Shown piece after piece: positions 30,800 through 59,199 of a DNA stretch of 64,000 bases (position 1 is the first letter of the stretch; each line of letters opens with the position of its first letter). The stretch is taken from assembly GCA_963732435.1 (NCBI GenBank), contig CAVSZL010000013.1, positions 129,605 through 193,604 of the forward strand, written 5' to 3'. The DNA comes from an uncultured Bacteroidales bacterium (GTDB lineage Bacteria > Bacteroidota > Bacteroidia > Bacteroidales > VadinHA17). Both the position numbers and the translations under genes were made by a program. The notes under the pieces are model-generated. The model had not been told where the DNA came from. It made no database searches and saw only the letters and a list, made by a program, of their open reading frames with translations.

Positions 30800-31480
30800 C
30801 TAATTCAGTTTTCCTTCATCGAGCCTCAGCGTTTTAGACATATTTTTAGCCAGACCGGATGAATGGGTGGCAAGAATTATTGTTATACCAAATTCATGGT
30901 TCATTTCAATCAGTAGTTTCCCGAGGTTCTCAGCATTTCTGGTATCAAGAGAACCGGTTGGTTCATCTGCAAGGAGAATTGAAGGATTATTTGCAAGTGA
31001 TCTCACTACAGCAACACGCTGAGCCTCCCCGCCTGAAATATGAAATGGATATTTATCTTTCAGATCGGTTATCCCTGTTTTTTCCATCAACATCTTCAGA
31101 TGAGCCTCTCTGACTGATAACTCATCCTTATTATATTCTGAAGCAAGCAGCGGGAAAAATATATTCTCTGATACTGTTAAATGGGGTAATAACAAATGAT
31201 CCTGAAATATAAACCCAACATTCCTGCTCCGGTAAACAGCTGATTCATTATCTGTTAAATTAGCGAGTGATGCACCTTTGAAAAATATCTCACCACTATC
31301 AGGCTTGTCGAGAAGACCTATAATGTTTAAAAGGGTGGTTTTACCTGAACCTGACGGACCCATAATCGCAATTGAGTCACCCTCATTTACATCCAGAGAC
31401 AGATTATCTAGGACTAAACCTCTCTGTATAAATGATTTTGATAAGTTTTTTATTGAAAGCATAAACAATTTATTAAGCAC
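30800..31480 (-). CDS. ABC transporter ATP-binding protein (MacB/LolD-like)
   Basis: Walker A GPSGSGKTT, signature ISGGEAQRVAV, Walker B ILLADEPTGSLD. The start may be the second Met (31462). Confidence 0.9.
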   Translation of the reverse strand: MLNKLFMLSIKNLSKSFIQRGLVLDNLSLDVNEGDSIAIMGPSGSGKTTLLNIIGLLDKPDSGEIFFKGASLANLTDNESAVYRSRNVGFIFQDHLLLPHLTVSENIFFPLLASEYNKDELSVREAHLKMLMEKTGITDLKDKYPFHISGGEAQRVAVVRSLANNPSILLADEPTGSLDTRNAENLGKLLIEMNHEFGITIILATHSSGLAKNMSKTLRLDEGKLN

Positions 31481-31514: not shown

Positions 31515-32810
31515 CTATTTTGGCATCATAGCATTGTAAACTTTCGAAAGTTCCTCAGACATTCTGTCCAGAGACAGGTGTTTCAGAACATTTTCTTTAC
31601 CGTCAGTACCAAGTTTCAACATTAGATTTTTATCGTTTAATACCTTAACCAGACTGGCAGATAATTCTTTTATATCATCCGGATTATAAGTTATACCACC
31701 ACCCGTTCTTGCAATTATTTCCGGAAATGCTCCGGTAGCCGGTTGAACAACCGGTACGCCTGCTGCATTGGCCTCAAGAATGTATAACCCGTAGCCATCA
31801 TATTTTCTTACAGGAACACTCATGACATCAATATTACTGAAAAAATCCTGTTTGCTGTTACCGTGAAATTCAGGATAGATTTTGACAAAACTCTTAAGTC
31901 CTGCTGCTTTTATCTTCCTTATTTGCTCAGAGATATAAGGTTTATCATCTCCGGTGAAACCACCGGAAACATGAAGGGTTAATCCCGGCAGTGCATTCAC
32001 CGACTTAGCCATGATAAATGCATCAACCAGTTTGTCAAAACCATTATGAGAATTGATCCTGCAGAAATATCCTATGGCCGGCCAGTTTTCTCTTTTTTTA
32101 ACATTCAGTAACTCGACCGGGTCAAATCCAAGTGGTACTACTTTAACATTATCTCCGGATATTCCTGTTTTAGAGATAAAAAAATCTTTGTAGTATTGGC
32201 TGGGAGTTAAAAAAACATCAACATTGCCGGCTTCTTTTGATATCAACTTCCAGGCATTTGACTGATAGGGTTCCGACATCTCATTAATCCAGTCATCCTC
32301 ATTAAGCAATGAGCAGACAATACTTACATTCAGCTTTTTCTTAAGCTGACGTGCAAGTCCTATAATCAAAGCATTGGAAAGGTGGATAATATCTGGTTTA
32401 CCATCTTTGCAAAGATGGTCTGCCAACCTTTGCAGCTCTTTTTCAGGAAAAGCATTCTCTCCCCTGATCATGTTAAGAGTCATATCTTCAAGCCCTTCTG
32501 TCCTTGTGGTTCCGGCTCTCTTTGCTGCCATTCTGAGCATTGGAGCAGAGTCGAAGATCTTATCCATAAATACCGGCATATTCTTCATGAATGGAACTTT
32601 TTCTCTGATGTACATTGAAATGGCACCAAAAAATACATTATTATCAAGTCCTGATTCGGTATTTTTATCTTCTGGCGGAAGATATAATGGTATCGCTGTG
32701 GCCTGTATCCCTTTTACTTTGCGGATAGCCCTCAGATAGATCATATCGCGGTAACAATTTCCGCAATAAAAAGATCCTCCCGAGCCTGTTATAAGATATA
32801 CAATCTTCAT
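31515..32810 (-). CDS. GT4-like (GT-B fold) glycosyltransferase with N-terminal CGNC motif
   Basis: 431 aa. C-terminal GYGLYILEANAAGVPVVQPATGAFPEII resembles the GT4 EX7E region. Unusual N-terminus GSGGSFYCGNCYRD. Confidence 0.65.
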   Translation of the reverse strand: MKIVYLITGSGGSFYCGNCYRDMIYLRAIRKVKGIQATAIPLYLPPEDKNTESGLDNNVFFGAISMYIREKVPFMKNMPVFMDKIFDSAPMLRMAAKRAGTTRTEGLEDMTLNMIRGENAFPEKELQRLADHLCKDGKPDIIHLSNALIIGLARQLKKKLNVSIVCSLLNEDDWINEMSEPYQSNAWKLISKEAGNVDVFLTPSQYYKDFFISKTGISGDNVKVVPLGFDPVELLNVKKRENWPAIGYFCRINSHNGFDKLVDAFIMAKSVNALPGLTLHVSGGFTGDDKPYISEQIRKIKAAGLKSFVKIYPEFHGNSKQDFFSNIDVMSVPVRKYDGYGLYILEANAAGVPVVQPATGAFPEIIARTGGGITYNPDDIKELSASLVKVLNDKNLMLKLGTDGKENVLKHLSLDRMSEELSKVYNAMMPK

Positions 32811-32875: not shown

Positions 32876-34108
32876 TTATTTTGTCACCGGGGATTTATCT
32901 CCAAATGCCAATAATCTGCCATCTTCAGTAAGAATGTAAAATTTCCCCTCTATAACGGCAGGGGAGCTGCTTATTGGAGTTCCGGCATTAAAACTCCATA
33001 GTTTTTTCCCTGCAGCCAGATCAAGTATTGAAACAGTACCATCCATGCTTGTAAAAAGAACCTTTGATTTTGTTATTACTGCAGAACCAATAATCCGTCC
33101 GTTTGTTCTATACTTCCAGATTAATTTACCATTTCCGGCATTGTAACAGTAAATGAATTTATCTTCGTTACCAATAACAACATAATTATTTCCAACAGCA
33201 GGAACAGCAAGGATAGAACCTGATTGTTCATTCCCCGGAACCTTCCAAACCATCTTTTTTGTTTTTATATTCAATCCAAAGATTGTTCCATCGTAATCGC
33301 CGAAATATGCCATATCACCAGCGAGGGAAGGGGAGGCGGCAATATATACTCCAACATCTACTGTATCTTTCTGATTGCCTGAAAGGGGATCGACTAATCT
33401 TATCATACCATCACACCCACCAAAAACAATTTTACCATCCTGAATTGAGGGTGTTCCGTTTACATAATTTTCTGTTTCAATTTTCCATATCAGCTTACCT
33501 GTCTTTGGATCGACACAGTGCAGAAAATAATCATAGCTGCCCACAACTATACCGGCTTTACTTCCGGATAACCAGACATTTGCAGATCCTGAGATCTGAT
33601 TATCTGTGGTATATGTCCATATAAGTTTACCTGTAACTTTATCAACCGCAATCAGTCTTCCATCATTCAGTCCTACAATAACTTTATTCCCAAATACAAG
33701 TGGAGCTGCTTCAATCATACTTCCCGCATTATATTGCCATTTGATCTTGCCATCGGATGAAACAGCTATCAGGTTGCCGGGATCATTTCCAAAGAAGAGA
33801 GTTCCATCACTTATTACGGGCGATGATTTAGTTTTAGATCCTGTGGATAGGCTCCACAGCAGTTTTGGATCTGATGGGAACTCACGATCGTACCTGCCTG
33901 AAAGATCTGCTTTTCCTCTGAATAGTAACCAGTCCTTGTTTCCTGTTTGGGTATATGCTGATAGAAAGAATAATCCAGATAATAATAGTGTAATATGATA
34001 CCTTTTATGCCATTGGGTAGTTTTGGTACGAAGCATTTGCCGGACCAACCTATAAAAAATAAATCCTTTGTGAAATATGGCCTCTTTATGTTTAAGCAGC
34101 AATAGCAT
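32876..34108 (-). CDS. PQQ-like (BamB-like) beta-propeller repeat protein, exported
   Basis: WLLFRGKADLSGRY entry motif. Repeated G.L.A.D..TGK..W blades (e.g. LIAVDKVTGKLIWTY, LHCVDPKTGKLIWKI). The start may be Met at 34036. Confidence 0.7.
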   Translation of the reverse strand: MLLLLKHKEAIFHKGFIFYRLVRQMLRTKTTQWHKRYHITLLLSGLFFLSAYTQTGNKDWLLFRGKADLSGRYDREFPSDPKLLWSLSTGSKTKSSPVISDGTLFFGNDPGNLIAVSSDGKIKWQYNAGSMIEAAPLVFGNKVIVGLNDGRLIAVDKVTGKLIWTYTTDNQISGSANVWLSGSKAGIVVGSYDYFLHCVDPKTGKLIWKIETENYVNGTPSIQDGKIVFGGCDGMIRLVDPLSGNQKDTVDVGVYIAASPSLAGDMAYFGDYDGTIFGLNIKTKKMVWKVPGNEQSGSILAVPAVGNNYVVIGNEDKFIYCYNAGNGKLIWKYRTNGRIIGSAVITKSKVLFTSMDGTVSILDLAAGKKLWSFNAGTPISSSPAVIEGKFYILTEDGRLLAFGDKSPVTK

Positions 34109-34120: not shown

Positions 34121-35209
34121 TTATTTGAATTTACTTAAAGCGCCAGTTGGACAGATTTCAATAACACTATTACTTTTGGTTTTCAGTATGTTATCAAAAT
34201 CTTCGGTAAGTGGTTCTGATATTATGCTGATAAATCCCCTGTTAATAAAACAAAGGGCCGGTTCATCAGTCGAATCTTCACAAAGCCTTACACAGAGTCC
34301 GCATTTTATACACTTGGCATTCTCAAAAATCAGACCGGTTTTGTGATTAATCTTTTTAACAATTGGAGAATTTACCAGTTTTCCCCTTGGATCTTTTATG
34401 GCAAAATCCTTTGAAAGATCTCTCAATCTGCAATCATCGGCAGCACGACAATCGCAGTGCATACAGCTTTGCGCCTCGCATGAAGCAGATTGCGTATCTG
34501 TTATTTCCCTGAACCTGGTTATTTCAACCGGACATTCTTTTAACCATTCCTGTAATTCTGTTGATCCAAGTTTTCCAATCTTAGAAGAAAATGGCCTTGC
34601 TCTCTTTTTTAATTTATCGCCTGTCACTGTGAATACATCTTCTGCAAGCTCTTCAATCGTTTCCTGCTGGGTTTTATTCAGTTTTATCTGTTTTGAAATA
34701 AAAAGTTTCATATTTCTTATTGAGACCGGAATGTCTATTTTTTTACGCCGGCATGCGTTTTCACAATAGGCGGGACAGATGGTACATGCAATTTCAGACG
34801 ATCTGACTTCATAGAGAGTAAGCTGAAATGCTCCTTCAAAATCCCTGGCAGAGAGCAATCTGTTCATCAGAGGAATGTTATATCCGGCTGGACATACAAT
34901 TTTGCATGGTGCCTCACACTCGGCTCTGTGTTCGGATAACAAAAGTTCTAATGCACTACGCCTCAGGGATATTATATCTTCACCTGAAATATCAATATCC
35001 ATTCCTTCCTGAACTAATGCTGAACATGATGGCAGATAATTACCTGTTCTTTTGTCTTTTACCATGCAAACCATGCAGGATGTATAGTGTGGCATTCCTC
35101 TCTTATAACACAAGGTGGGAATACTTAAACCTGCTCCGGTGGCAACATCCAGAATGGTTGCCCCATCAGCAGCTTCATATTCGATAGTATCAATCTTCAG
35201 CTTAATCAT
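34121..35209 (-). CDS. Fe-S protein: N-terminal 2Fe-2S ferredoxin domain, GltD-N/DPD-domain-II-like 2x[4Fe-4S] domain, C-terminal 4Fe-4S motifs
   Basis: MIKLKIDTIEYEA..TLCYKRG..TSCMVCMV..SC (NuoG/HydA-N-like Fer2). ECEAPCKIVCPAGYNIP...CTICPAYCENACRR (Fer4_20-like). CIKCGLCVRLCE. Overlaps the upstream stop by 8 nt. Confidence 0.75.
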   Translation of the reverse strand: MIKLKIDTIEYEAADGATILDVATGAGLSIPTLCYKRGMPHYTSCMVCMVKDKRTGNYLPSCSALVQEGMDIDISGEDIISLRRSALELLLSEHRAECEAPCKIVCPAGYNIPLMNRLLSARDFEGAFQLTLYEVRSSEIACTICPAYCENACRRKKIDIPVSIRNMKLFISKQIKLNKTQQETIEELAEDVFTVTGDKLKKRARPFSSKIGKLGSTELQEWLKECPVEITRFREITDTQSASCEAQSCMHCDCRAADDCRLRDLSKDFAIKDPRGKLVNSPIVKKINHKTGLIFENAKCIKCGLCVRLCEDSTDEPALCFINRGFISIISEPLTEDFDNILKTKSNSVIEICPTGALSKFK

Positions 35210-36329
35210 TGATATTAACAATTTCTATAGCATTTTCAGGACACACAATTCTGCAATTATCACATTTTGTGCATATTGACTGATCAATCTCATGTTTTTC
35301 ATAAGGTATGAATGGAATCGCCTTTACAGGACATTCCTGTGAACATTTAGTGCATCCTGTACAGTTGTCATTAATGTCATACCTGATAAGGTCCCTGCAT
35401 TTATTTGCCCTGCATATCCCCATGGTGTGTTCTTCATACTCCTGCCTGAAATATCTCAGCCCTGTAAGGACTGGATTTGGAGAAGTCTTTCCAAGTCCGC
35501 ATAGACTGCCCTGTTTAACTGATGTACATAATTTTTCAAGCTCTTCAATTTCGAAAAGATCAGCTTCTCCAGTACTTAATCTGGTAAGTATATTAAGCAT
35601 TTGTTTCGTTCCTACCCTGCAAAAAGTACATTTTCCGCATGATTGCTTATGAGTGAATGTCAGAAAGTATTTTGCCATATCAACCATGCAATCTGTATCA
35701 TCAAGGACAATCATTCCTCCCGAGCCCATCATAGCTCCCATATTTGTAAGTTCCTCGTAATCAATAGGAATATCTGCTTCACTTGCAGGAATACATCCCC
35801 CTGAAGGACCTCCTATCTGAACAGCTTTGAATGTTCTTCCCGGGGCAACTCCATCACCTATATCCTCAACAATCTGCCTTATTGTTATCCCCATCGGTAC
35901 TTCAATTAGTCCGCCTTTTGAGATTTTTCCTGCCAGGGCAAAAACTTTTGTCCCCTTGCTTTTTTCGGTTCCAATCGAACAAAAAGCATCGGCACCGTTT
36001 GTTATGATCCATGGAACAAGAGAAAGAGTTTCGACATTATTGACAAGGGTAGGTTGATCTCTGAATCCTTTAACAGCCGGATATGGAGGCCTTATATTGG
36101 GTGTTCCTCTCTTACCCTCCAGAGATGCTATTAATGCTGTTTCTTCACCACAGACAAAGGCCCCGGCTCCCTCAAAAATGCTTATGTTAAACGAAAAGTC
36201 ACTATTACAGACACTTTCACCAAGAATTCCATTCTCATAACATTTTTTTATAGCCTTCCTGCACCCTTGATACAGCAAGAGGGTATTCTGCCCTGATATA
36301 GAAAATTCCTTCATTTGCACCGGTGGCAA
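35202..36329 (-). CDS. NuoF/HydB-like NADH-binding flavoprotein, C-terminal part; segment 2 of a frame-disrupted fusion gene
   Basis: From RKAIKKCYENGILGE onward: FEGAGAFVCGEETALIASLEGKRG, SCGKCTFCRVGT (N3-type cluster) and C-terminal CTGCTKCSQECP / CTKCDNCRIVCP. Residues before about 36254 in this frame are non-homologous. Confidence 0.85.
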   Translation of the reverse strand: MPPVQMKEFSISGQNTLLLYQGCRKAIKKCYENGILGESVCNSDFSFNISIFEGAGAFVCGEETALIASLEGKRGTPNIRPPYPAVKGFRDQPTLVNNVETLSLVPWIITNGADAFCSIGTEKSKGTKVFALAGKISKGGLIEVPMGITIRQIVEDIGDGVAPGRTFKAVQIGGPSGGCIPASEADIPIDYEELTNMGAMMGSGGMIVLDDTDCMVDMAKYFLTFTHKQSCGKCTFCRVGTKQMLNILTRLSTGEADLFEIEELEKLCTSVKQGSLCGLGKTSPNPVLTGLRYFRQEYEEHTMGICRANKCRDLIRYDINDNCTGCTKCSQECPVKAIPFIPYEKHEIDQSICTKCDNCRIVCPENAIEIVNIND

Positions 36330-37623
36330 AGGCAGCTATAATCATTCCTTCAATTACCCTGTAAGGAAATGATTCAAGAATCATCCTGTCCATAAAGGCA
36401 CCGGGATCTCCTTCATCTCCATTACATACAACATACTTTCGATCACCTTTGGTCATCTGCGATATTGTCCATTTCTTTCCTGTCAAAAAACCGGCACCAC
36501 CTCTTCCTCTGAGTCCGCTCTCTGTTATTATATTAATTATTGTTTCCTGGTCGATGGAGTTAATAGATTTTCTAAGAGCTTCAAATCCTCCGGTCAGGAT
36601 ATAATCATCAAAAGAATCAGGCGATAATGTGCCACTGTTAAGTGTTGAAATATGAACCTGGTAGTTAAGAAAACTATTAAGGTATTTTTCTCTGAGCTCT
36701 ACAGGAAGATTTATCTGACTCGCGATTTTGTCTTCTGACAGAAAAGTATCTACAATATCGTTTATTCTATGTTTAAATTTCTTATTTAATGTTCTGGGCT
36801 TTATATGCTTAAGTAATATCTCCTCAACCTGTTGTTTAATAACATTTGTATATCTTGAATTCTCATTTCCGGTGTTTACAATCTCCATTAAGGGAGTCTG
36901 ATTACATACACCAACACAACCAACCGACTTTAATCTTATGTTAAGATTATACTTCTCTTTTACATTTAGAATCTCATTCAGTATTTCTTTACTTCCTCCG
37001 GCAACACAGCATGAACCTAATCCTACCCTGACTTCAGCATCAAAATCTTCAATTATTTCTTCCGAAACTGATTTCAGGTCTTTGCTGCCCGAATTCAGAA
37101 AGTCTGCGATAATATGATCTGCCTCGGTAGGCTTTACATGTCCATAGGTCTTGTCATCAATCTGTACAACAGGAGCAAGTGTACAGCAACCCAGACAGGC
37201 AACTTCTTCGATTGAAAAAAGATTATCAGGGGATGCATTTAATGTATCATCAATATGAAGAACTCTCTTAAATGCATCTGAAATCAATGGTGCCCCTTTC
37301 ACATGACAGGCTGTCCCGGAACAAATCTTCACAATATGCTTGCCAACAGGAAGATGACGGAACTGGGAGTAAAATGTAGAGACACCGGAGATCTGACCTG
37401 GAGTTATATCTGTAACTGTGCAGATATATTTCAAAGCTTCAGATGGTAAATAATTTAATTGTTTCTGCACCTCCTGAAGTATTTCAATTACCTTATCCTT
37501 TCCTCTTCCTGTTTTAGCTATTACCTTATCAACAACTGAAGTGATATCAGTATGTAAAGTTTGCATACAGTCGCACTCTCTGGTAACAATATTACTTTCT
37601 TCTGTCTTCAATTTGAAATGCAA
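36235..37623 (-). CDS. NuoE-like 2Fe-2S + HndB-like thioredoxin-fold ferredoxin + N-terminal half of NuoF; segment 1 of the fusion gene
   Basis: KICSGTACHVKG..ACLGCCTLAPVVQID (NuoE). GLGSCCVAGG..SVGCVGVCNQTPLMEI (HndB-like). GLRGRGGAGFLTGKKW..VVCNGDEGDPGAFMDR..YIRAEYPLAV (NuoF). Overlaps the upstream gene end by 16 nt. Confidence 0.85.
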   Translation of the reverse strand: MHFKLKTEESNIVTRECDCMQTLHTDITSVVDKVIAKTGRGKDKVIEILQEVQKQLNYLPSEALKYICTVTDITPGQISGVSTFYSQFRHLPVGKHIVKICSGTACHVKGAPLISDAFKRVLHIDDTLNASPDNLFSIEEVACLGCCTLAPVVQIDDKTYGHVKPTEADHIIADFLNSGSKDLKSVSEEIIEDFDAEVRVGLGSCCVAGGSKEILNEILNVKEKYNLNIRLKSVGCVGVCNQTPLMEIVNTGNENSRYTNVIKQQVEEILLKHIKPRTLNKKFKHRINDIVDTFLSEDKIASQINLPVELREKYLNSFLNYQVHISTLNSGTLSPDSFDDYILTGGFEALRKSINSIDQETIINIITESGLRGRGGAGFLTGKKWTISQMTKGDRKYVVCNGDEGDPGAFMDRMILESFPYRVIEGMIIAAFATGANEGIFYIRAEYPLAVSRVQEGYKKML

Positions 37624-39299
37624 TAAAGGTTTTTCTTTCCTCTTATATAAATCTTCTTATCTGAAAAAGCTGGTGTACAGTCGGCTCTTTCGCCAAGCGG
37701 CGATTCTGAAATAAGTTTATATTCAGGTCCGGCACTAATAATATGCATTACCCCGCTTCTGTCAATAAGGTAAAGCATTTCATCAGCTATAATTGGGGAT
37801 GCATAGAACTGATCCATGAAATAATGAGTCCAGAGGGTATCTCCCTTTTCTGCGTTATAGCAGGCAAGATCTCCGTTTCCTGTAGCTACAAATAGATACT
37901 CATCAGTTGCAACAGGGCTGGAAACGTCAGGTGTAAAGGTATTATCTTCCCATACGATTGAAGCAGCTGCTCCGGGTCTGATTGCAGCCAGTTTTGCATA
38001 ATCAGTTACAGCATAAGTCATTGTACTGTTTACAGCAACCGATGGTGCTACATCACCACTCATACATTCCACACTCCATAACTCGCTTCCTGAATTTATA
38101 TCGTAACTTGTTACGTGCGGATTTCCATTTATTATTAATTGCGGTTTGCCTCCAAAGAAGGCAAGTACCGGTGAAGACCAGACAGGCCGGCCTTTTCGTA
38201 TAGTTTCCCATTTAAGTTCACCGGTTTCAGCTTCAATGCCCATAAGTGAAATTTTTTCATTGCTGTCGAACTGCAACATTAAAAGGTCTTCATAAATTAT
38301 AAGAGATGAGGAATATCCGTAGATATTCTCCGGTAATCCTATATTTTTCGACCAGAGGAGTTTTCCGTCATGATCAAACCCAACCAGGTTCCCATTTGCA
38401 AAAACTGCACATACAACTTTTTCATTCACAGCAACCGTGGAAGTAGCAAGGCCTGCATCCTGATCCATTTCCGGCAACACTTCAGGTTCTCCCTGAATAC
38501 CAGAAGCTGACCCGGTCCATAATATTTCACCTGTTTTTTTATCAATACAATATACTTCACACACGTTTTCACTGGCTCCTGTCAGATATATATTATCTTC
38601 CCATATAACCGGAGAGCTCTGTCCGGATTTTGGTATTTCAATCTTCCATTCAATATTCTTTCCCTCTTCGCCATTCCATTCTGTTGAGTAGCCTGATCCT
38701 CCGGCAATTCCATGACTATTCTGTCCTCTGAAAGAGGGAAAATTTGTCTTATCCGGTTTTGGAGTTGTAACGCTGCCCTGTTCATTTTCCTGTTTATTTG
38801 CAGATGAAAGCCCGGATGGATCGGGCAGGTTGTTCCTCATTATAAATGAAGCTGTTAGAGCCACAACAAAAATGACAGATGCCGTTGCCAATAGATATTT
38901 TCTGTTTCTGTCTTTTATATGAATTTCATCAGGTTTTGAATCGGACAGAAGGGGAGAGGGTTTTTCATTACCTGATATAATTCTCTGACATAAAATAAAT
39001 ACAACTGCACCTGCGAGAAGAAGATAAGCACCACTTTCAACCTGCCGTCTTGAATTAAAGTATGCTTTTCGGGCTACCAGATCCATCGCTCTTACCTGTT
39101 CTGCCTTTATTTTATTCTCAGGATCCTTGTCGAACTGTTCTTTGACCGAGAGTAATGCCGGATTGTCAAGGGGATTGAGAGTTTTAAGCTGAACAAGGCT
39201 GAAGATCATCGTCAGTGCTATAATAAGAGTGAATCCTCCAGAGATCTGGCTTACTATTTTAAGGATACTGATATCTTTGTCGGTAATGTTAAGCTTCAT
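37608..39299 (-). CDS. Membrane-anchored PQQ-like beta-propeller protein (about 3 N-terminal TM helices)
   Basis: Hydrophobic segments FTLIIALTMIFSLV, AYLLLAGAVVFILCQ and LLATASVIFVVALTASFIM. Then the FPSFRGQNSHGIAG entry motif and propeller blades (CIDKKTGEILWT, GIEAETGELKWE, DINSGSELWS). Confidence 0.7.
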   Translation of the reverse strand: MKLNITDKDISILKIVSQISGGFTLIIALTMIFSLVQLKTLNPLDNPALLSVKEQFDKDPENKIKAEQVRAMDLVARKAYFNSRRQVESGAYLLLAGAVVFILCQRIISGNEKPSPLLSDSKPDEIHIKDRNRKYLLATASVIFVVALTASFIMRNNLPDPSGLSSANKQENEQGSVTTPKPDKTNFPSFRGQNSHGIAGGSGYSTEWNGEEGKNIEWKIEIPKSGQSSPVIWEDNIYLTGASENVCEVYCIDKKTGEILWTGSASGIQGEPEVLPEMDQDAGLATSTVAVNEKVVCAVFANGNLVGFDHDGKLLWSKNIGLPENIYGYSSSLIIYEDLLMLQFDSNEKISLMGIEAETGELKWETIRKGRPVWSSPVLAFFGGKPQLIINGNPHVTSYDINSGSELWSVECMSGDVAPSVAVNSTMTYAVTDYAKLAAIRPGAAASIVWEDNTFTPDVSSPVATDEYLFVATGNGDLACYNAEKGDTLWTHYFMDQFYASPIIADEMLYLIDRSGVMHIISAGPEYKLISESPLGERADCTPAFSDKKIYIRGKKNLYCISN

Positions 39300-39300
39300 T

Positions 39301-40578
39301 TTAACTCACTGCTTTAATTGGACAATATTTAAAACACCTCCCACAACTAAAACACTTTCCCTGGTCAGGTTTATATTCAGTCCTTCTTTTAGTTATGGTT
39401 AGGGATACTAATCCTATTCCAAGAGAGATTCCAAGAAATATGCCAGCCAGCGGGGATGCTTTTCTAAAACGATTGATTATAGCCTCTTCTTCAATAAACA
39501 GATCTTCATCTGTCTGACCAGTTTCCTTGAATGCTAAAACTGTTCTTGACAGTGATTCAATTCCGGATTCTTTTTCAAATCTGATATCTCTTGCCAGTCT
39601 GACAGTCCGGTTTGCTCCCGATAACACAGGAGCCAGATTATAAAAGATTAAACCACCTGCAGCTGCAAAAGCCGGAATAAACAAAATATATAGTAAGAAC
39701 CTTCTTCTTAATTTCTCCTGATCTTCCTGTTTCTTATCAATATTGGAAGGGATTATCGCATCATATGGACATGAATTCTCACACAATCTGCAATTAGTAC
39801 ATTCAGCCGGAGTTATCGTAAGATGCTTTCCTGCAAACCTTGAAAAAAGATTGAGAAGAACACCATAGGGGCATAAAAACCTGCAATAAGGCCTGCTGAC
39901 AAATATTCCTGCAAGTAACAGAAGTATCCCAAAAATTATCATTGTATATGGTGCATCAAGTCTGAATATTCCTACAAAAGGATCGTATCTGCAAATTAAA
40001 AACTGACTTTCAGTTGCTGAAAAAAGCACAGCCAGTGCCAGATAGACAAAAGGAACTGAAGTCAGAAATATTTCGACGGCTTTGGAAAGTTTAACCGGCG
40101 AAAAACCTGTAAGCTCTTGTATAGCACCTAACGGACAAACTCCTGCACAGAATACTCTTCCAAATGCCAGGGCAAATATCAGGGGTATTAAGAAAAACAA
40201 AAGGGCTGTTAAAGGAATCGTGTAGGATTCATTGAATAATGCAAGTGAGACATTCTGTACAGAGCCAACAGCACATATGCATCCTTCCCTGTAAAATCCA
40301 AAATATGCGAGTGAAAAAAGAGACATCAATAATAAACCTTTCCTTGAACGTTTCTTCAAAGCAAGCCATGTTGTAACACTCAGAGCAATAATTAAAAGAG
40401 TAACATCCAGGTATTCCCATACCGATGCTCTTTGCAATGGCATCTGATGTTCAGGATAAGAATACTCAGTCTCAAACTCCGGTCGCGGGAATCTGTCCTG
40501 CCCAATTAAATCAGCATGCAAGCTTAATAATAATATGAGTAATATATATGGAGCAATCTTCTTCATTAAGTATGTCAT
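39301..40578 (-). CDS. NapH/MauN/NosR-C-like integral-membrane polyferredoxin
   Basis: Multiple TM helices with CX3CP motifs (FCAGVCPLGAIQE, YCRFLCPYGVLLN), cytoplasmic CTNCRLCENSCP and C-terminal CFSCGRCFKYCP. Stop is 1 nt from the next start. Confidence 0.75.
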   Translation of the reverse strand: MTYLMKKIAPYILLILLLSLHADLIGQDRFPRPEFETEYSYPEHQMPLQRASVWEYLDVTLLIIALSVTTWLALKKRSRKGLLLMSLFSLAYFGFYREGCICAVGSVQNVSLALFNESYTIPLTALLFFLIPLIFALAFGRVFCAGVCPLGAIQELTGFSPVKLSKAVEIFLTSVPFVYLALAVLFSATESQFLICRYDPFVGIFRLDAPYTMIIFGILLLLAGIFVSRPYCRFLCPYGVLLNLFSRFAGKHLTITPAECTNCRLCENSCPYDAIIPSNIDKKQEDQEKLRRRFLLYILFIPAFAAAGGLIFYNLAPVLSGANRTVRLARDIRFEKESGIESLSRTVLAFKETGQTDEDLFIEEEAIINRFRKASPLAGIFLGISLGIGLVSLTITKRRTEYKPDQGKCFSCGRCFKYCPIKAVS

Positions 40579-40652
40579 TATTCATTTAGCTTGTTAACTG
40601 TTATGCCTCAAACACTCTAATATGCATCGTCATTGCGAGCGTAGCGAAGCAA

Positions 40653-41222
40653 TCACATTTTCCCTTTATCTTTCTCAATGTATGAAAACCCGACAGGTAC
40701 TCTGCTGATTGCATGTGACGGACAAGTTCTGGCTATTGCACACTCATTACAGTTTACACACAGGTCGTGCTTTATCTGCATATAAAGTGATCCGTTTCCG
40801 AAATCAGCACATCCTTTAACGCATTTTGCACATCCGTCACAAAGATTCTCGTCAATTGTATATTCAAAATAGGGTTCTTCAACATACTTGCGGACAATAG
40901 CCCCTGTAGGACAAAGCTGAGCTTCAGCACCGGTGCTTATTGTTTTAACACCCTGCCGCAGATAACCTCCGCATAAATCACAATATCCACACATTCTGTA
41001 AGCATGTACGCACTTTGATGCAGAAGGGGTAAGGACACAATTAGTTTTGCACTGCCCACATGTTGTACACTTAAAAGGATCAATCTGCCATACATATCCT
41101 GATCCGGAGGTTTTCTTTGAGAGGGCAACCGGAATTATTACCAGAGGAACAGCAACAATGAATTTTCCTGCCCGTCTGACAAAATCCCGTCTTGTCTGAT
41201 ATTTATTTTTTTCACTTCCCAT
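40653..41222 (-). CDS. Tat-exported 4x[4Fe-4S] ferredoxin, NapG-like
   Basis: Twin-arginine signal QTRRDFVRRAG. Cluster motifs CTTCGQCKTNC, MCGYCDLCGG..LCPTGA, CDGCAKCVKGC and CVNCNECAIARTCP. ATG at 41222 preferred over the TTG at 41237. Confidence 0.8.
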   Translation of the reverse strand: MGSEKNKYQTRRDFVRRAGKFIVAVPLVIIPVALSKKTSGSGYVWQIDPFKCTTCGQCKTNCVLTPSASKCVHAYRMCGYCDLCGGYLRQGVKTISTGAEAQLCPTGAIVRKYVEEPYFEYTIDENLCDGCAKCVKGCADFGNGSLYMQIKHDLCVNCNECAIARTCPSHAISRVPVGFSYIEKDKGKM

Positions 41223-41233
41223 AACTTGATCTA

Positions 41234-41398
41234 TCAATACTTATTGCAGTCTGTTTCACCATTACAAATGCCCTTACCCGGACACTTTGAGCATGCACTT
41301 CCTGATACAATGCGACTTCCCAAAGCCATAGCAATAAGAACCAGAATTGCAAAGAGTCCAAGCCTGCCCGATTTCTTAAAAAATTCCTCCCTTGTCAT
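41234..41398 (-). CDS. Small (54 aa) membrane/secreted Cys-rich protein, not in the ORF track
   Basis: My translation: MTREEFFKKSGRLGLFAILVLIAMALGSRIVSGSACSKCPGKGICNGETDCNKY. ATG start. Same strand as the array. Ends 11 nt before the ferredoxin start. Confidence 0.5.
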   Translation of the reverse strand: MTREEFFKKSGRLGLFAILVLIAMALGSRIVSGSACSKCPGKGICNGETDCNKY

Positions 41399-41457: not shown

Positions 41458-42682
41458 TCAATTCTGAGTAACCCCGACATCGTAAACCATTAATGAGTTA
41501 CCATGTCTTACATAGAGTCTTTTATTTTTCAATACCAGATGAGCCCAATGTGGGTTTGATCCGTATGGTACTGTAAATGTACTTATTATATTGAACCTGT
41601 CAGCCTGGGGTTCTATCAGTAAAATCTTTCCTGATTCAGTGTATATATATAATAATCCGTCATTAGCAATAATATTTGCAGGAGCAGCATTTCCAATGGA
41701 GAAGAGCTCTTTACCTGTTTTCATGTCGAGACAGAATAGCCTGCGGTTTCTGTCCCCGGTTCCATATATCCTTCCATTCAGAATTACTGCACCGCTGTTA
41801 ATATTGTCAATTAATGTAGAACCCCATAGTTGTTTTACTGCATTTCCATTCATCTCCAGTTTCAGCATTAAACCACCACTTCCACTTTCAGAAAAGCAAA
41901 ACAGATGACCATCAGAATAAACCGGAGAATTCGGATGCACGTTATATGTATTTTCATGCTTAAACTTCCAGAGCAAAATACCTGATTCAGCATTAAAGCC
42001 ACAAACGGATTTTTCCATTAAGGTGACAAGAATTTTTTTGTCTGCAGTCTTAATAATGATTGGAGAACAGTATGCAGATTCTTCATCAATGCCTTTGCTT
42101 TTCCAGATTAATTTACCTGAGTTTCTGTCCAGAGCTACAGTGCTTGTTTCTACACCACCGGGAGAACAATAGAGAACATTGCCATCAAATGCAAGATTCT
42201 CCGTCATGCCCCATGTAATACTTCTGGCTCCATATTCCTTTACCAGATCGACTGACCATATTACCTGACCATTTGTGGCCGACATACAGACAAGTTTCCC
42301 GAAAGAACTCATCAGATATAACTTCCCGTCGATAATCAGAGGGTGTGGATCTTGTTCCTTCATAATTTCTTTCCCATTCCTGTCCATATTCTTTCTTCCA
42401 TAATAACTTTCCGTTAATGTCGAAAGCAAAGACAGAACCGATCCCATTGATCATCCCTGTAGTATAAACTCCGTTTTGTGTAACCGAAGCGGAAGTATGG
42501 CCATCTCCAAGGTCATCAAAATGCCATAAAAGTTTTGGTCCGTTATCGGGCCATTTCTTCAATAACCCCTTTTCGTTATATACGCCATTACGATCAGGCC
42601 CCCTCCATTGAGCTACCTCCTGGGCTTTAGTAACTGGCACAAAAAGTGATGAAACTAAAAAAATGTTTAATAGTATTCTCAT
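41458..42682 (-). pseudogene. PQQ-like beta-propeller paralog, frame disrupted near 42340-42343
   Basis: ORF 42185-42682 is homologous up to ..NYEGTRSTP. ORF 41458-42447 resumes at PLIIDGKLYLMSSFGKLVCM. The paralogs read GTRSTPLIIKDKLF, so removing one nt restores the frame. Confidence 0.75.
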
Positions 42683-42744: not shown

Positions 42745-43959
42745 TTAACTTGATGCAATATCATAAACCATAAGAGAGGTACCATGTCTGACATATAATT
42801 TCTTATCTTTTATAACAAGATGTGCCCAATGAGGATTTGCACCAAAAGGAACAGGAAATGAGCTTATTATGTTAAATCGATCTGTTTGTGGTTCAACTAG
42901 GGAAACTTTTCCAGACTCACTGTAAATATATAATAATCCATTGTTTGCGATAATATTGGCTGGTGCCAGATTCCTGACTGAAAACAAATCTTTGCCTGTT
43001 TGCCAGTCAATGCAGAACAGACTTCGGTTTCTGTCGCCAGTTCCATATATCCGGTTGTTTAGAACAACAACACCTCCGATTTTAGGGTCAAGTTTAGCAT
43101 TTTTCCAGACTTCAGACACTGCACTTCCATCTGCTGAAAGCTTTAGCATAACACTTCCAAGACCATATCCGCTTGTACAAAAAAGAAGACCGTCTTTATA
43201 TATGGGAGTATTAGGATGAACGTCGGGATCCATTTTAAATGGAGATTTCCAGAGTAATGATCCAGTTACGGCATCAAAACCGCAAATTGATTTTTCCATA
43301 ATAGTTACCAGAATTTTCTTATTTGAAAGTTTTATGATCATTGGGGAGCAATAGGCCGATTTTTCATCAATACCTTTGCTCTTCCAAATCTGCTTTCCTG
43401 TATTTATATCTAAAGCAACCAGTGCTGCTTCCTTCCCACCTGGTGTACAATATAATACATTTCCATCATTCAGTAGATTCTCGGTAATTCCCCATTCAAT
43501 GTTTCTTGCACCATATTGTTTTACCAGGTCAGTAGTCCAGATTGTTTTTCCATCGGTGGCACTCATACAAAAAAGTTGTCCAAAAGCACTGAGTAAATAT
43601 AGCTTATCGTTTATAACAAGAGGAGTGGATCTGACCCCATTATGACTTTCGGTCCATTCCTTTCCATATTCCTTTCTCCAGAGAAGTTTGCCCTTTAGAT
43701 CAAATGCAAAAATGAAGCCGTTGCCATTAATCATTCCGGTTATATAAATTCCTTTATCTGTAACAGAAGCTGAAGTATGACCATCACCCAGTTCATCAAA
43801 ATGCCATAATAGCTTTGGTCCATTATCCGGCCATTTATTCAGCAACCCGGATTCATTATAAATTCCATCGCGGTTAGCTCCCCTCCATTGGGAGATTTCC
43901 TGAGCAGACAGACCAATGCCACCCAATAGTAATAGAAGTGTTGAAATTGTTTTTATCAT
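42745..43959 (-). CDS. Secreted PQQ-like beta-propeller protein, paralog
   Basis: Signal peptide, then ISQWRGANRDGIYNESGLLNKWPDNGPKLLWHF. Collinear with 44002-45222 and 41458-42682 along the full length. Confidence 0.75.
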   Translation of the reverse strand: MIKTISTLLLLLGGIGLSAQEISQWRGANRDGIYNESGLLNKWPDNGPKLLWHFDELGDGHTSASVTDKGIYITGMINGNGFIFAFDLKGKLLWRKEYGKEWTESHNGVRSTPLVINDKLYLLSAFGQLFCMSATDGKTIWTTDLVKQYGARNIEWGITENLLNDGNVLYCTPGGKEAALVALDINTGKQIWKSKGIDEKSAYCSPMIIKLSNKKILVTIMEKSICGFDAVTGSLLWKSPFKMDPDVHPNTPIYKDGLLFCTSGYGLGSVMLKLSADGSAVSEVWKNAKLDPKIGGVVVLNNRIYGTGDRNRSLFCIDWQTGKDLFSVRNLAPANIIANNGLLYIYSESGKVSLVEPQTDRFNIISSFPVPFGANPHWAHLVIKDKKLYVRHGTSLMVYDIASS

Positions 43960-52842: not shown

Positions 52843-52897
52843 TATTAGAATATTTCTTATTTTCCTGTTAAAAATTGGTCAAAACTTAAAAGACTTT

Positions 52898-54442: not shown

Positions 54443-54443
54443 G

Positions 54444-55943: not shown

Positions 55944-55944
55944 A

Positions 55945-57417: not shown

Positions 57418-57444
57418 ATATGCAATAAAGTAATATTAACTTTT

Positions 57445-59118: not shown

Positions 59119-59199
59119 CGGATAATATTTCTTACTTTAAACTAAATGATTTTTTTTTCGTTGCCATCTGACAGGATTATATCATTGAAGAAAAAAACA

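What the first reader, a model, noticed from the sequence alone, without database searches (positions are those of the whole stretch)
34121..41398. NADH-type flavoprotein and Fe-S module wired to NapH-like and Tat-NapG-like ferredoxins, with no recognisable terminal enzyme
Six consecutive, overlapping or near-abutting minus-strand genes encode the following. (1) A 54-aa Cys-rich peptide. (2) A Tat-exported 4-cluster ferredoxin (QTRRDFVRRAG signal, four CxxCxxCxxxC-type motifs), NapG-like. (3) An integral-membrane polyferredoxin with CX3CP motifs, NapH/NosR-like. (4) A 3-TM-anchored beta-propeller. (5) A single-polypeptide NuoE + HndB-like + NuoF fusion with FMN/NADH motifs, an N3 cluster and two C-terminal 4Fe-4S motifs. 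(6) A 2Fe-2S plus GltD-N-like Fe-S protein. NuoEF-type modules normally dock onto a hydrogenase, formate dehydrogenase or complex I, and NapGH normally serves NapAB. None of those catalytic partners is present here: I saw no H-cluster, molybdopterin or heme CXXCH motifs in the array. The only candidate electron acceptors or donors are exported beta-propellers. The arrangement reads as a cytoplasm-to-periplasm electron conduit (NADH or ferredoxin to membrane polyferredoxin to periplasmic ferredoxin) dedicated to an unknown periplasmic chemistry. I cannot match it to a described system.
Basis: partly seen in the sequence, partly recalled or inferred. Interest (0 to 1): 0.75.

Follow-up and report, generated by a model that had tools for sequence, protein, structure and literature searches.

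The report
NADH-to-periplasm iron-sulfur conduit with propellers
A roughly 22-kb operon, conserved from Bacteroidales to Kiritimatiellae-, Lentisphaerae- and Planctomycetes-type bacteria, links an NADH/ferredoxin flavoprotein through a membrane iron-sulfur protein to an exported ferredoxin and several membrane-anchored propeller proteins; I found no description of this electron route to the periplasm, and its end reaction is unknown.

Summary
The six genes exist and their domain calls hold. One correction: in this window the NuoE-NuoF fusion is split by a 1-nt insertion near 36262. Relatives encode one 799-805-aa protein. Two other genes in the window, including asnB, carry similar indels, so I read this as assembly error.

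The finding is the middle of a larger minus-strand operon (27532-49180). Gene order is propellers, 486-aa anchored propeller, NHL propeller, 54-aa 4-Cys peptide, Tat ferredoxin, NapH-like protein, TM-propeller, flavoprotein, Fe-S protein, propeller, GT4, ABC/FtsX. This order is kept in about 75 of 82 Bacteroidales loci. The core is kept at 40-60% identity in PVC-type loci.

No hydrogenase, formate dehydrogenase, molybdoenzyme or cytochrome is linked anywhere I looked.

The flavoprotein is a Bfu-family BfuC-BfuB fusion, closest to NfnB (E = 3e-202). Its partner is a truncated NfnA/StnA-like BfuA. One Bacteroidales clade lacks both, so this module is accessory.

NapH, NapG and NosR HMM cut-offs are not met. 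The resemblance is architectural only.

Best reading: a new membrane-spanning variant of Bfu plus NapGH-like wiring that serves propeller proteins. The terminal chemistry is unknown. The literature searches found no description. Interest 0.7.

The parts
47891..49180 (-). Exported PQQ_2 beta-propeller (429 aa), first gene of the operon
   Evidence: PQQ_2 E = 2.9e-28. A signal-like N-terminus is present. An ortholog sits in the same position in 45 of 66 Bacteroidales loci.
46380..47840 (-). Membrane-anchored 8-bladed propeller 'prop486' (486 aa), the best-conserved propeller and a candidate catalytic or partner subunit
   Evidence: Present in 68 of 69 loci. The family is 73-82% identical across the sampled Bacteroidales, with many invariant residues including H164, H186, H268, H357 and H452. 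The AF2 model has pLDDT 74 with an N-terminal helix at residues 2-30; the nearest folds are BamB and tetrathionate hydrolase. It is fused to the NHL propeller in other lineages.
45346..46275 (-). Membrane-anchored 6-bladed NHL propeller (309 aa) with an invariant vicinal Cys-Cys (F.GCCNP...T.EK)
   Evidence: Present in 69 of 74 loci. The CCNP motif is invariant even in fused homologs at 26-31% identity. The AF2 model has pLDDT 82.5 and an NHL fold.
44002..45222 (-). Exported PQQ_2 propeller paralog (406 aa)
   Evidence: Pfam assignment. It is 63% identical to the 404-aa paralog. This gene is absent from most related loci.
42745..43959 (-). Exported PQQ_2 propeller paralog (404 aa)
41458..42682 (-). 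Third tandem propeller paralog, frameshifted (ORFs 42185-42682 and 41458-42447)
   Evidence: tblastn with the 404-aa paralog switches frame between window positions 42227 and 42396.
41234..41398 (-). 54-aa single-TM peptide with a periplasmic 4-Cys motif (CxxCPGxGxCxGxxDC)
   Evidence: Conserved in 70 of 77 loci. Counterparts in distant loci carry a true twin-arginine motif followed by Cx5CxxCx5C.
40653..41237 (-). Tat-exported ferredoxin with four [4Fe-4S] motifs
   Evidence: RRDFV and 16 Cys are conserved. Present in 77 of 77 loci. The best PDB sequence match is the WorS-type polyferredoxin 9mqx_E at E = 5.8e-5. No NapG model matched at E <= 0.01.
39301..40578 (-). NapH/NosR-superfamily integral-membrane polyferredoxin (425 aa)
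   Evidence: Fer4_5 x2. It scores 63 bits against TIGR02163 napH, whose cut-off is 213. It has 6-8 hydrophobic helices, and its 2x[4Fe-4S] domain is split by a two-helix insertion. More than 6000 homologs were found, with the top 120 at 73-97% identity.
37608..39299 (-). Propeller with about three N-terminal TM helices (563 aa), always next to the NapH-like gene
   Evidence: PQQ_2 E = 2e-34. Present in 76 of 77 loci.
35202..37623 (-). BfuC-BfuB fusion flavoprotein: NuoE-type 2Fe-2S, second 2Fe-2S, FMN/NADH site, N3-type 4Fe-4S and two C-terminal 4Fe-4S. Interrupted here by a 1-nt insertion at about 36262.
   Evidence: The repaired protein aligns over residues 179-784 with NfnB 9n5u_B at E = 3e-202. 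Present in 63 of 74 Bacteroidales loci.
34121..35221 (-). Truncated BfuA-like Fe-S protein: 2Fe-2S, GltD-N 2x[4Fe-4S], a Cys-rich linker and a Nqo3-type 2x[4Fe-4S]. It has no flavin or NAD(P) domain.
   Evidence: Its N-terminal ~175 residues match NfnA, StnA and 9bov_A. Longer forms that retain a Rossmann domain occur in deeper clades and in PVC-type loci.
32876..34108 (-). PQQ_2 propeller (410 aa)
   Evidence: PQQ_2 E = 7e-40. Present in 63 of 64 loci.
31515..32810 (-). Cytoplasmic GT4 glycosyltransferase with a conserved N-terminal CxxC
   Evidence: Present in 62 of 63 loci. It remains linked in distant loci, sometimes upstream of the core.
30800..31480 (-). LolD/MacB-type ABC ATPase
   Evidence: Present in 62 of 63 loci.
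27532..30798 (-). Duplicated FtsX-type permease (1088 aa, about 10 TM helices, two large periplasmic domains)
   Evidence: Conserved at the end of the operon.

Best explanation
The finding is the redox core of a conserved multi-subunit inner-membrane complex.

Shown by sequence:
- A cytoplasmic Bfu-type flavoprotein, formed by fusion of BfuC and BfuB. It has an FMN/NADH site and the extra 2Fe-2S and C-terminal 4Fe-4S domains that distinguish bifurcating Bfu enzymes from NuoEF.
- A truncated BfuA that is only a string of Fe-S clusters.
- A NapH-superfamily membrane polyferredoxin.
- A Tat-exported four-cluster ferredoxin.
- A small, anchored 4-Cys peptide.
- Three membrane-anchored periplasmic propellers (prop486, the NHL propeller with an invariant CCNP motif, and the TM-propeller), plus soluble propellers.

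Inferred:
- NADH, probably together with reduced ferredoxin, is oxidised at the Bfu core.
- Electrons leave through the BfuA-like Fe-S wire. This parallels the short BfuA 'plug' of WorABCSL, which feeds a polyferredoxin wire.
- The electrons enter the cytoplasmic Fe-S domain of the NapH-like protein, cross the membrane and reach the Tat ferredoxin, possibly via the 4-Cys peptide.
- They are then delivered to a site on the anchored propellers, where an unidentified periplasmic substrate is reduced.
- In the clade without the Bfu genes, the NapH-like protein would draw on quinol or free ferredoxin, as proposed for NapGH and NosGH.
- The GT4 and ABC/FtsX genes belong to the same functional unit. 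Their role is unknown; substrate handling or assembly are possibilities.

My preferred guess for the terminal chemistry is thiol-, disulfide- or sulfur-type reduction at the vicinal Cys pair of the NHL propeller. This guess is weak.
For: - Domain content and family scores.
- Tight or overlapping gene junctions on one strand.
- Conserved order in about 75 of 82 Bacteroidales loci, with per-gene presence of 85-100%.
- The same core (prop486, NHL, small Cys peptide, Tat ferredoxin, NapH-like, TM-propeller, BfuCB, BfuA') in Kiritimatiellae and other distant contigs at 40-60% identity.
- prop486 and the NHL propeller are fused in some lineages.
- GT4/ABC/FtsX stays linked although it sits upstream in some loci and downstream in others.
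- No alternative catalytic partner was found anywhere.
- There is precedent for Bfu cores that feed a third site through BfuA and extra Fe-S subunits: PMC9304861 and PMC12318220.
- In this lineage BfuA' has lost the NAD(P)/FAD domain that deeper relatives retain. Its only possible output is therefore another Fe-S protein.
Against: - Nothing shows physical docking of BfuA' on the NapH-like protein, or electron transfer, or its direction.
- Ten Bacteroidales loci lack the Bfu genes, so the propeller, NapH-like and ferredoxin part works without them.
- The propellers show no recognisable redox cofactor site. Their folds match only non-redox BamB, tetrathionate hydrolase and TRIM-NHL structures.
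- The roles of GT4 and ABC/FtsX do not follow from a simple respiratory reading.
- In this window the flavoprotein gene is frameshifted. If that is real, the module is inactive here.
Confidence: 0.45

Rival explanations
1. The wiring is the same but electrons run inward. A periplasmic donor is oxidised at the propeller and ferredoxin end, and electrons enter through the NapH-like protein. The Bfu core then bifurcates them to NAD+ and ferredoxin, forming a redox loop that conserves energy.
For: Bfu enzymes are reversible, and several are used in the bifurcating direction (PMC9304861; PMC12318220). The closest relative of the flavoprotein is the reversible Nfn-Bfu transhydrogenase.
Against: No known donor-oxidising cofactor (Mo/W-pterin, NiFe, FeFe, heme or Cu motifs) occurs in any periplasmic subunit. 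The clade without Bfu would have no obvious acceptor other than quinone.
Confidence: 0.15
2. This is a periplasmic maintenance or maturation system, not a respiratory one. Low-potential electrons would keep exported proteins reduced, or mature or repair them. Examples are Cys-dependent enzymes such as sulfatases, oxidised thiols, or vicinal disulfides. The propellers would act as client-binding scaffolds.
For: - The NHL propeller has an invariant vicinal Cys-Cys, and the small peptide has four Cys.
- The carriers are secretome-rich glycan degraders.
- Sulfatase genes lie within 10 kb in 22 Bacteroidales loci, including this window.
- An FGE-sulfatase-domain gene sits inside the operon in L083 and L089, and an AhpC/Redoxin gene sits next to it in L083.
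Against: Sulfatase or FGE linkage is not among the recurrent neighbours in the distant set of about 88 loci, so it may reflect inherited synteny. A bifurcating flavoprotein and a long Fe-S wire seem oversized for a stoichiometric repair task. No thioredoxin-fold protein is part of the conserved core.
Confidence: 0.15
3. This is an envelope-biogenesis machine. GT4, ABC/FtsX and the propellers would build or export a glycoconjugate or lipid-linked product, and the Fe-S chain would supply reductant for one biosynthetic step.
For: GT4, ABC and FtsX are present in 62 of 63 Bacteroidales loci and remain linked after rearrangement in distant lineages. MacB/FtsX-type transporters do mechanical work in the periplasm (established knowledge). 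prop486 is fused or adjacent to prenyltransferase / squalene-cyclase-like toroid proteins in some lineages.
Against: Several distant loci carry the redox and propeller core with no GT4/ABC/FtsX within the about 10 kb of flanking sequence examined (L084, L087). No other sugar- or lipid-biosynthesis genes are conserved in the cluster.
Confidence: 0.15
4. The modules are only neighbours. The flavoprotein pair would be a degenerate Nfn-type transhydrogenase acting alone in the cytoplasm, and the NapH-like protein with its ferredoxin would be an independent quinol dehydrogenase.
For: The Bfu genes are dispensable in one clade. PVC-type BfuA' proteins keep a GltD-like NAD(P)/FAD region.
Against: The Bfu pair keeps the same position between the TM-propeller and the next propeller across lineages at 40-60% identity. 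The window's BfuA' has no nucleotide domain left, so it cannot be a transhydrogenase. Gene junctions are tight or overlapping.
Confidence: 0.05

Closest known systems
NapGH / NosGH / MauMN modules (a NapH-type membrane Fe-S protein paired with a Tat-exported NapG-type polyferredoxin)
   Same: It is a two-component design. One part is an integral-membrane protein with two CX3CP motifs and a cytoplasmic 2x[4Fe-4S] domain. The other is a Tat-exported ferredoxin with four [4Fe-4S] motifs, encoded side by side. It is presumed to pass electrons to a periplasmic enzyme. In nos clusters the client, NosZ, is itself a beta-propeller enzyme, and an ABC system is co-encoded.
   Different: - HMM scores fall far below the NapH, NosR and NapG cut-offs.
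- The membrane protein has extra helices and a split ferredoxin domain.
- No NapAB, NosZ, MauAB, cytochrome c or copper motifs are present.
- The cytoplasmic side is served by a Bfu flavoprotein.
- The clients are cofactor-less-looking PQQ_2/NHL propellers.
Bfu-family electron-bifurcating enzymes, especially Nfn-Bfu/StnABC (PDB 9n5u, 8oh5) and WorABCSL (9mqx)
   Same: The BfuB region aligns full length with NfnB at E = 3e-202. It has the N-terminal 2Fe-2S and the C-terminal 2x[4Fe-4S] that non-bifurcating NuoF lacks. A NuoE-like BfuC is present. BfuA' shares the 2Fe-2S + GltD-N Fe-S N-terminus of NfnA/StnA. As in WorABCSL, a short BfuA could plug into a polyferredoxin.
   Different: BfuC and BfuB are fused. 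BfuA' has lost the NADP/FAD and pterin-like domains. The presumed third partner is a transmembrane Fe-S protein leading to the periplasm. Schut et al. 2022 describe no such Bfu type; their membrane-bound types are Mbh-Bfu and Nuo-Bfu.
NuoEFG input module of complex I
   Same: The NuoE, NuoF and NuoG-N-terminal domain folds are present, as is the FMN/NADH site.
   Different: The whole-protein nuoF_fam score is below cut-off. Additional Bfu-specific clusters are present. No other nuo genes are adjacent.
BamB and PQQ-dependent dehydrogenases (PQQ_2 / PQQ propellers), and tetrathionate hydrolase
   Same: The 8-bladed propeller fold is shared. Foldseek TM-scores normalised to the target are about 0.7-0.78 for BamB and about 0.57 for tetrathionate hydrolase.
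   Different: Scores fall far below the BamB and PQQ-dehydrogenase cut-offs. The propellers are anchored in the inner membrane by N-terminal helices. They are co-encoded with Fe-S proteins.

Membership tests
NapH (quinol dehydrogenase ferredoxin subunit; TIGR02163 / NF007013) | Reaches the curated HMM cut-off | tested here: not met
   63.2 bits against a cut-off of 213, and 55.5 bits against a cut-off of 234.
NapH (quinol dehydrogenase ferredoxin subunit; TIGR02163 / NF007013) | Two CX3CP motifs in a polytopic membrane protein, plus a 2x[4Fe-4S] domain | tested here: met
   Fer4_5 x2 at E = 5e-17. FCAGVCP, YCRFLCP and two CxxCxxCxxxCP motifs are conserved. However, the dicluster domain is split by a two-helix insertion.
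NapH (quinol dehydrogenase ferredoxin subunit; TIGR02163 / NF007013) | Encoded with napA/napB (a molybdoenzyme and a diheme cytochrome) | tested here: not met
   No CxxCH motif and no molybdopterin domain in the window cluster. None in the related loci.
NapG/MauM ferredoxin-type protein | Tat signal plus four [4Fe-4S] motifs | tested here: met
   RRDFV and 16 conserved Cys in four motifs.
NapG/MauM ferredoxin-type protein | Matches the curated NapG/MauM model | tested here: not met
   No NapG/MauM family is among the 8 NCBIfam hits at E <= 0.01. The best hit is a generic FdxA model at 32 bits against a cut-off of 65.
NosR | Reaches the NosR model cut-off and has a periplasmic FMN-binding domain | tested here: not met
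   NF046105 scores 49.6 bits against a cut-off of 1000. No FMN_bind domain is present.
Bfu family (BfuABC electron-bifurcating enzymes; Schut et al. 2022) | BfuB with FMN/NADH site, N-terminal 2Fe-2S, N3-type 4Fe-4S and C-terminal 2x[4Fe-4S] | tested here: met
   The repaired protein aligns over residues 179-784 to residues 7-596 of NfnB 9n5u_B at E = 3e-202, with the Cys motifs conserved.
Bfu family (BfuABC electron-bifurcating enzymes; Schut et al. 2022) | NuoE-like BfuC with a 2Fe-2S cluster | tested here: met
   2Fe-2S_thioredx at E = 1.9e-49, residues 32-174, fused to BfuB.
Bfu family (BfuABC electron-bifurcating enzymes; Schut et al. 2022) | BfuA homolog carrying the N-terminal 2Fe-2S and 4Fe-4S clusters | tested here: met
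   Fer2_4, Fer4_20 and Fer4_Nqo3. The N-terminus matches NfnA, StnA and HydA.
Bfu family (BfuABC electron-bifurcating enzymes; Schut et al. 2022) | An identifiable third-substrate catalytic domain or subunit | tested here: not met
   No catalytic domain in BfuA' and none in the conserved neighbours.
Bfu family (BfuABC electron-bifurcating enzymes; Schut et al. 2022) | Couples NAD(H), ferredoxin and a third substrate (actual bifurcation or confurcation) | not testable with these tools
   Requires enzymology.
Complex I NuoEFG | NuoF equivalog score, and co-location with nuoA-N | tested here: not met
   TIGR01959 scores 309.6 and 127.8 bits on the two fragments, against a cut-off of 558.65. No nuo genes are nearby.
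BamB / PQQ-dependent dehydrogenases | Reaches the curated cut-offs (TIGR03300, TIGR03075) | tested here: not met
   The best BamB score is 151.9 bits against a cut-off of 285.2. The best PQQ_enz_alc_DH score is 77.6 bits against a cut-off of 480.

The most novel reading that the evidence does not exclude
This would be the first Bfu-type (flavin-based, NADH + ferredoxin) module working across the cytoplasmic membrane. It would power a new class of periplasmic redox enzyme built from cofactor-poor beta-propellers. The active site would be a vicinal Cys-Cys (CCNP) on an NHL propeller, fed by a Tat-exported four-cluster ferredoxin and a Tat-targeted 4-Cys mini-protein. The system would be an ancient, widespread trait of anaerobic glycan-degrading lineages in the Bacteroidota and in PVC-type phyla (Kiritimatiellae, Lentisphaerae, Planctomycetes).
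Probability: 0.25. Interest if true: 0.85.

Novelty: new variant of a known kind. Interest (0 to 1): 0.7.

Why it matters
Fermentative Bacteroidales and members of the PVC group (Planctomycetes, Kiritimatiellae, Lentisphaerae and relatives) dominate anaerobic polysaccharide degradation in digesters, peat, sediments and guts. Their known membrane energetics are limited to Rnf, Nqr, an incomplete Nuo and fumarate reductase.

A conserved complex of about 14 genes that moves low-potential electrons between the NADH/ferredoxin pool and the periplasm would add a new node to their redox budget. It could serve as an electron sink, as a periplasmic reductant supply, or as an entry point for electrons.

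It would also extend the Bfu enzyme family to a transmembrane output. And it would give a first functional handle on the very large, unannotated 'PQQ-binding-like / BamB-like' propeller families of these phyla.

The cluster is well delimited and has clear subunit predictions, so the question can be tested directly by genetics and biochemistry.

Tried and rejected
- **Curated family assignment.** Pfam and NCBIfam gave only generic Fe-S and propeller hits for the periplasmic and membrane parts.
- **PDB sequence search.** prop486 gave no hit. The NapH-like protein gave only ferredoxin-motif matches.
- **Structure prediction and Foldseek.** prop486 matched BamB and tetrathionate hydrolase, and the NHL protein matched TRIM2/Brat NHL domains. 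The folds were confirmed but gave no functional clue. Model coordinates are not exposed, so the positions of conserved Cys and His could not be mapped.
- **Rfam scan of the whole window.** No riboswitch or RNA was found that might hint at a ligand.
- **Sigma-70 promoter and terminator scan.** Counts were not above the shuffled background.
- **Literature.** Seven searches found no description of this cluster.
- **Exact look-up of the window's NapH-like protein.** It is not on record, so the source genome was not identified.
- **NiFe-hydrogenase-like motif.** A regex hit for RxCGxCxxxH fell in the NHL protein's CGCCNPxH. I rejected it as a metal-site homology, because the first Cys and the His are not conserved in distant homologs; only CCNP is.
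- **Sulfatase-maturation idea.** I kept this only as a minor rival, because sulfatase and FGE linkage does not recur in the distant loci.
- **L068.** This locus has only the peptide, ferredoxin and NapH-like genes next to an unrelated 722-aa protein, and it gave no insight.

Full report
**1. What is in the window**

Bases 27532-49180 form one uninterrupted run of minus-strand genes, matching a block of negative GC skew. In transcription order the genes are:

- a 429-aa PQQ_2 propeller
- a 486-aa propeller ('prop486')
- a 309-aa NHL-type propeller
- two intact PQQ_2 paralogs (406 and 404 aa) and one frameshifted paralog
- a 54-aa Cys-rich peptide
- a 194-aa ferredoxin
- a 425-aa NapH-like membrane protein
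- a 563-aa propeller with N-terminal TM helices
- a NuoE-NuoF-type flavoprotein
- a 366-aa Fe-S protein
- a 410-aa propeller
- a GT4 glycosyltransferase
- a LolD-type ABC ATPase
- a 1088-aa duplicated FtsX permease

The finding (34121-41398) covers six of these. Most gene junctions are tight or overlapping.

**2. Check of the observation**

All six descriptions hold at the domain level.

- The ferredoxin has a conserved RRDFV twin-arginine motif and 16 conserved Cys in four [4Fe-4S]-type motifs.
- The membrane protein has two Fer4_5 (CX3CP) domains and two CxxCxxCxxxCP motifs. The latter are separated by an insertion with two more hydrophobic helices.
- The exception is gene 5. Here it is two overlapping ORFs (36235-37623 and 35202-36329). 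An alignment with four relatives shows one extra base at about 36262 in the window. Relatives encode a single 799-805-aa protein. Deleting that base gives one open frame.
- The housekeeping gene asnB (49542-51210) and one propeller paralog (41458-42682) are also frameshifted. With three single-base indels in 64 kb, I consider them most likely assembly errors. This cannot be proven here.
- No cluster protein has a CxxCH motif.

**3. Conservation**

*Bacteroidales set.* A scan of one genome per GTDB species with the NapH-like protein found at least 539 relatives. The best 80 loci, plus two from a contig look-up, are all Bacteroidales, Rikenellaceae-labelled or Bacteroidota MAGs. The gene order is prop429, prop486, NHL, peptide, Tat ferredoxin, NapH-like, TM-propeller, flavoprotein, Fe-S protein, prop410, GT4, ABC, FtsX. 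Nearly all loci keep this order.

Counting only loci long enough to contain each gene:

| Gene | Present / assessable |
|---|---|
| prop486 | 68/69 |
| NHL | 69/74 |
| peptide | 70/77 |
| Tat ferredoxin | 77/77 |
| TM-propeller | 76/77 |
| flavoprotein | 63/74 |
| Fe-S protein | 59/70 |
| prop410 | 63/64 |
| GT4 | 62/63 |
| ABC | 62/63 |

Ten loci from one clade (NapH-like identity 60-65%) lack the flavoprotein and Fe-S genes but keep all the rest.

*Flanking genes.* These vary. The commonest are asnB and sulfatases. None is a hydrogenase, formate dehydrogenase, molybdoenzyme or cytochrome.

*Beyond Bacteroidales.* prop486 has 249 representatives at E <= 1e-30 in a 50%-clustered library. These include fusions to an NHL propeller. 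Contexts of such homologs were examined in a Kiritimatiellae MAG and several other contigs. They again show prop486(-NHL), a small Cys ORF, Tat ferredoxin, NapH-like, TM-propeller, BfuCB fusion and BfuA-like protein. Two of them also carry GT4/propeller/ABC/FtsX.

A metagenome scan seeded with PVC-type prop486 proteins gave 80 more loci. Downstream of prop486 the counts, by approximate length thresholds, are:

| Gene | Present / assessable |
|---|---|
| NHL | 60/64 |
| Tat ferredoxin | 48/54 |
| NapH-like | 45/50 |
| TM-propeller | 34/39 |
| flavoprotein | 21/28 |
| BfuA-like | 19/27 |

In several of these loci the GT4-ABC-FtsX block lies upstream of the core instead of downstream. Linkage that survives rearrangement argues for a functional connection. 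A few loci carry prop486 alone (L086, L095, L103).

**4. What the parts are**

*Flavoprotein.* The repaired protein aligns over residues 179-784 with NfnB of an NfnABC complex (9n5u_B, E = 3e-202). The next matches are StnB-like and HydB subunits. True NuoF and FdsB proteins score much lower and lack the terminal domains. Residues 32-174 are a NuoE-type 2Fe-2S domain. By the criteria of Schut et al. 2022 (PMC9304861), this is a BfuC-BfuB core of the electron-bifurcating Bfu family.

*Fe-S protein.* The 366-aa protein shares its first ~175 residues (2Fe-2S plus the GltD-type 2x[4Fe-4S] domain) with NfnA, StnA and 9bov_A. It ends in an Nqo3-type dicluster domain and has no nucleotide or flavin domain. 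Deeper Bacteroidales clades have a 511-aa version with one Rossmann domain. PVC-type loci have 520-583-aa versions with a GltD-like GAGPAG region. The series looks like progressive erosion of an Nfn-type BfuA into a pure Fe-S wire.

*Precedent.* A short BfuA feeding a polyferredoxin wire is seen in WorABCSL (PMC12318220). Its polyferredoxin WorS (9mqx_E) is also the best PDB sequence match of the Tat ferredoxin, though weakly (E = 5.8e-5).

*NapH-like protein.* It belongs to the NapH/NosR superfamily by its Fer4_5 domains, but scores far below the NapH and NosR cut-offs. No NapG/MauM model matches the ferredoxin.

*Propellers.* They score far below the BamB and PQQ-dehydrogenase cut-offs.

- prop486 has a predicted N-terminal anchor helix and an 8-bladed fold nearest to BamB and tetrathionate hydrolase.
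- The NHL protein has an N-terminal anchor and a canonical 6-bladed NHL fold.
- The most striking conserved feature of the NHL protein is F.GCCNP...T.EK. The vicinal Cys-Cys is invariant even in homologs at 26-31% identity.

*54-aa peptide.* It has a positively charged N-terminus, one hydrophobic helix and four Cys. Its counterparts in distant loci carry genuine twin-arginine motifs (NRREFMK, GRRAFLR, TRRAFLR) followed by Cx5CxxCx5C. It may therefore be a Tat-targeted, metal-binding mini-subunit. That is inference.

**5. How it most likely works**

*Shown.* The domain inventory, the predicted sidedness (Tat signal, anchors, cytoplasmic flavoprotein), the conserved linkage, and the absence of any canonical catalytic partner.

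*Inferred.* NADH, probably with reduced ferredoxin, is oxidised at the Bfu core. Electrons pass along the BfuA-like wire to the cytoplasmic clusters of the NapH-like protein, then across the membrane to the Tat ferredoxin, and on to a site formed by the anchored propellers. Where the Bfu genes are missing, the NapH-like protein would use quinol or free ferredoxin, as proposed for NapGH and NosGH.

I favour outward flow (confidence 0.45 for the whole statement) for two reasons. NapGH-type modules are known as suppliers of periplasmic reductases. And no periplasmic subunit has a donor-oxidising cofactor motif.

The terminal reaction is unknown. A thiol-, disulfide- or sulfur-type reduction at the CCNP site is my weak preference.

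*Rivals.*
- Inward flow with bifurcation: 0.15.
- A maturation or repair role for exported proteins: 0.15. Hints come from sulfatase neighbours and FGE-domain genes, but these do not recur in distant loci.
- An envelope-biogenesis role centred on GT4 and ABC/FtsX: 0.15.
- Mere neighbourhood of unrelated modules: 0.05.

**6. Comparison with known systems**

It works like a NapGH/NosGH module fused in function to a Bfu core. It is not a member of the NapH, NapG, NosR, NuoEFG, BamB or PQQ-dehydrogenase families by their curated thresholds. The flavoprotein pair does meet the sequence-level definition of the Bfu family, but it lacks the defining third-substrate module. Schut et al. list membrane-bound Mbh-Bfu and Nuo-Bfu types and say many third substrates remain to be found. 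No NapH-linked type appears in the text or the held supplement. Seven literature searches found no description of this cluster.

**7. Verdict**

It is part of a larger unit that is conserved across phyla.

I class it as a new variant of known kinds: Bfu core plus NapGH-like conduit, with an unknown and possibly new periplasmic end. Interest 0.7. The linkage evidence is strong, and the biological question is open and directly testable. No function has been demonstrated, and the individual modules are familiar.

Noticed in passing
window ~36262 (minus-strand gene 35202-37623): A single extra base splits the BfuC-BfuB flavoprotein gene into two overlapping ORFs. Four relatives lack this base, and removing it restores a full-length NfnB-like frame.
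   Followed up: yes
window 49542-51210 (+), shift near 50870: The asparagine synthase B gene, divergent from the operon, is also broken by a one-base indel that is not in a homopolymer. Because this is a housekeeping gene, the window's frameshifts are probably assembly errors. asnB is the commonest upstream neighbour, found in 28 loci.
   Followed up: partly
window 41458-42682 (-), shift within 42227-42396: The third of three tandem 404-aa-type propeller paralogs is frameshifted. Most related loci have none or one of these paralogs, so this window carries a local expansion.
   Followed up: partly
window 41234-41398; L085:12416-12697; L084 ~12400-12611; L161:12352-12660; L120:8599-9039: The small Cys peptide is conserved across phyla. 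In PVC-type loci it has a genuine twin-arginine motif followed by Cx5CxxCx5C. In Bacteroidales the motif is degenerate (TRxxF..K) and the Cys pattern is CxxCx5Cx5C. It may be a Tat-targeted, metal-binding mini-subunit.
   Followed up: partly
window 45346-46275 (residues ~232-253): The NHL propeller has an invariant vicinal Cys-Cys in F.GCCNP...T.EK. In Bacteroidales the motif reads CGCCNPxH, which by chance matches the NiFe-hydrogenase L1 pattern CGxCxxxH. Only CCNP is kept in distant homologs.
   Followed up: partly
P0243, P0245, P0248, P0253, P0260, P0264, P0267, P0272; L088, JGI 3300075153: prop486-type propellers occur fused to an NHL propeller, to squalene-cyclase/prenyltransferase-like toroid domains, to HEAT repeats and to a BlaR1-type M56 domain. 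Toroid-domain genes also sit next to prop486 in two loci. Two of the fusions (P0264, P0267) have a hydrophobic helix between the two propellers, which poses a topology puzzle.
   Followed up: no
L083:4368-5498, L089:3328-4392; L083:2291-2869: In one high-GC lineage, an FGE-sulfatase-domain gene lies directly upstream of the prop486-NHL fusion. In L083 an AhpC/Redoxin gene is also nearby. Neither recurs in the other distant loci.
   Followed up: partly
window 34121-35221 compared with L074:15541-17076, L084:18677-20263, L115:11848-13596: The BfuA-like protein shows a size series of 583/528 aa (GltD-like NAD(P)/FAD region present), 511 aa (one Rossmann domain) and 366 aa (none). This suggests stepwise loss of the NADP site from an Nfn-type ancestor.
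   Followed up: partly
L151:15210-19990: One metagenomic locus carries two consecutive copies of the BfuC-BfuB flavoprotein gene.
   Followed up: no
window 51412-63967 (+) and 1-27515 (+): The operon sits between glycan-utilisation genes. Downstream are six sulfatases plus a glycyl-radical enzyme (59146-61506) with its activase (61466-62335). Upstream are GH2, GH43, GH42, rhamnosidase and sulfatase genes, RhaT, RhaA and an FGGY kinase. This points to a region for using sulfated, rhamnose-rich polysaccharides.
   Followed up: partly
L068:9141-11296: One Bacteroidales genome (CP070687) has only the peptide, Tat ferredoxin and NapH-like genes, followed by a 722-aa protein with a Peptidase_S74 chaperone domain. 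It has no propellers, flavoprotein, GT4 or ABC genes nearby.
   Followed up: partly
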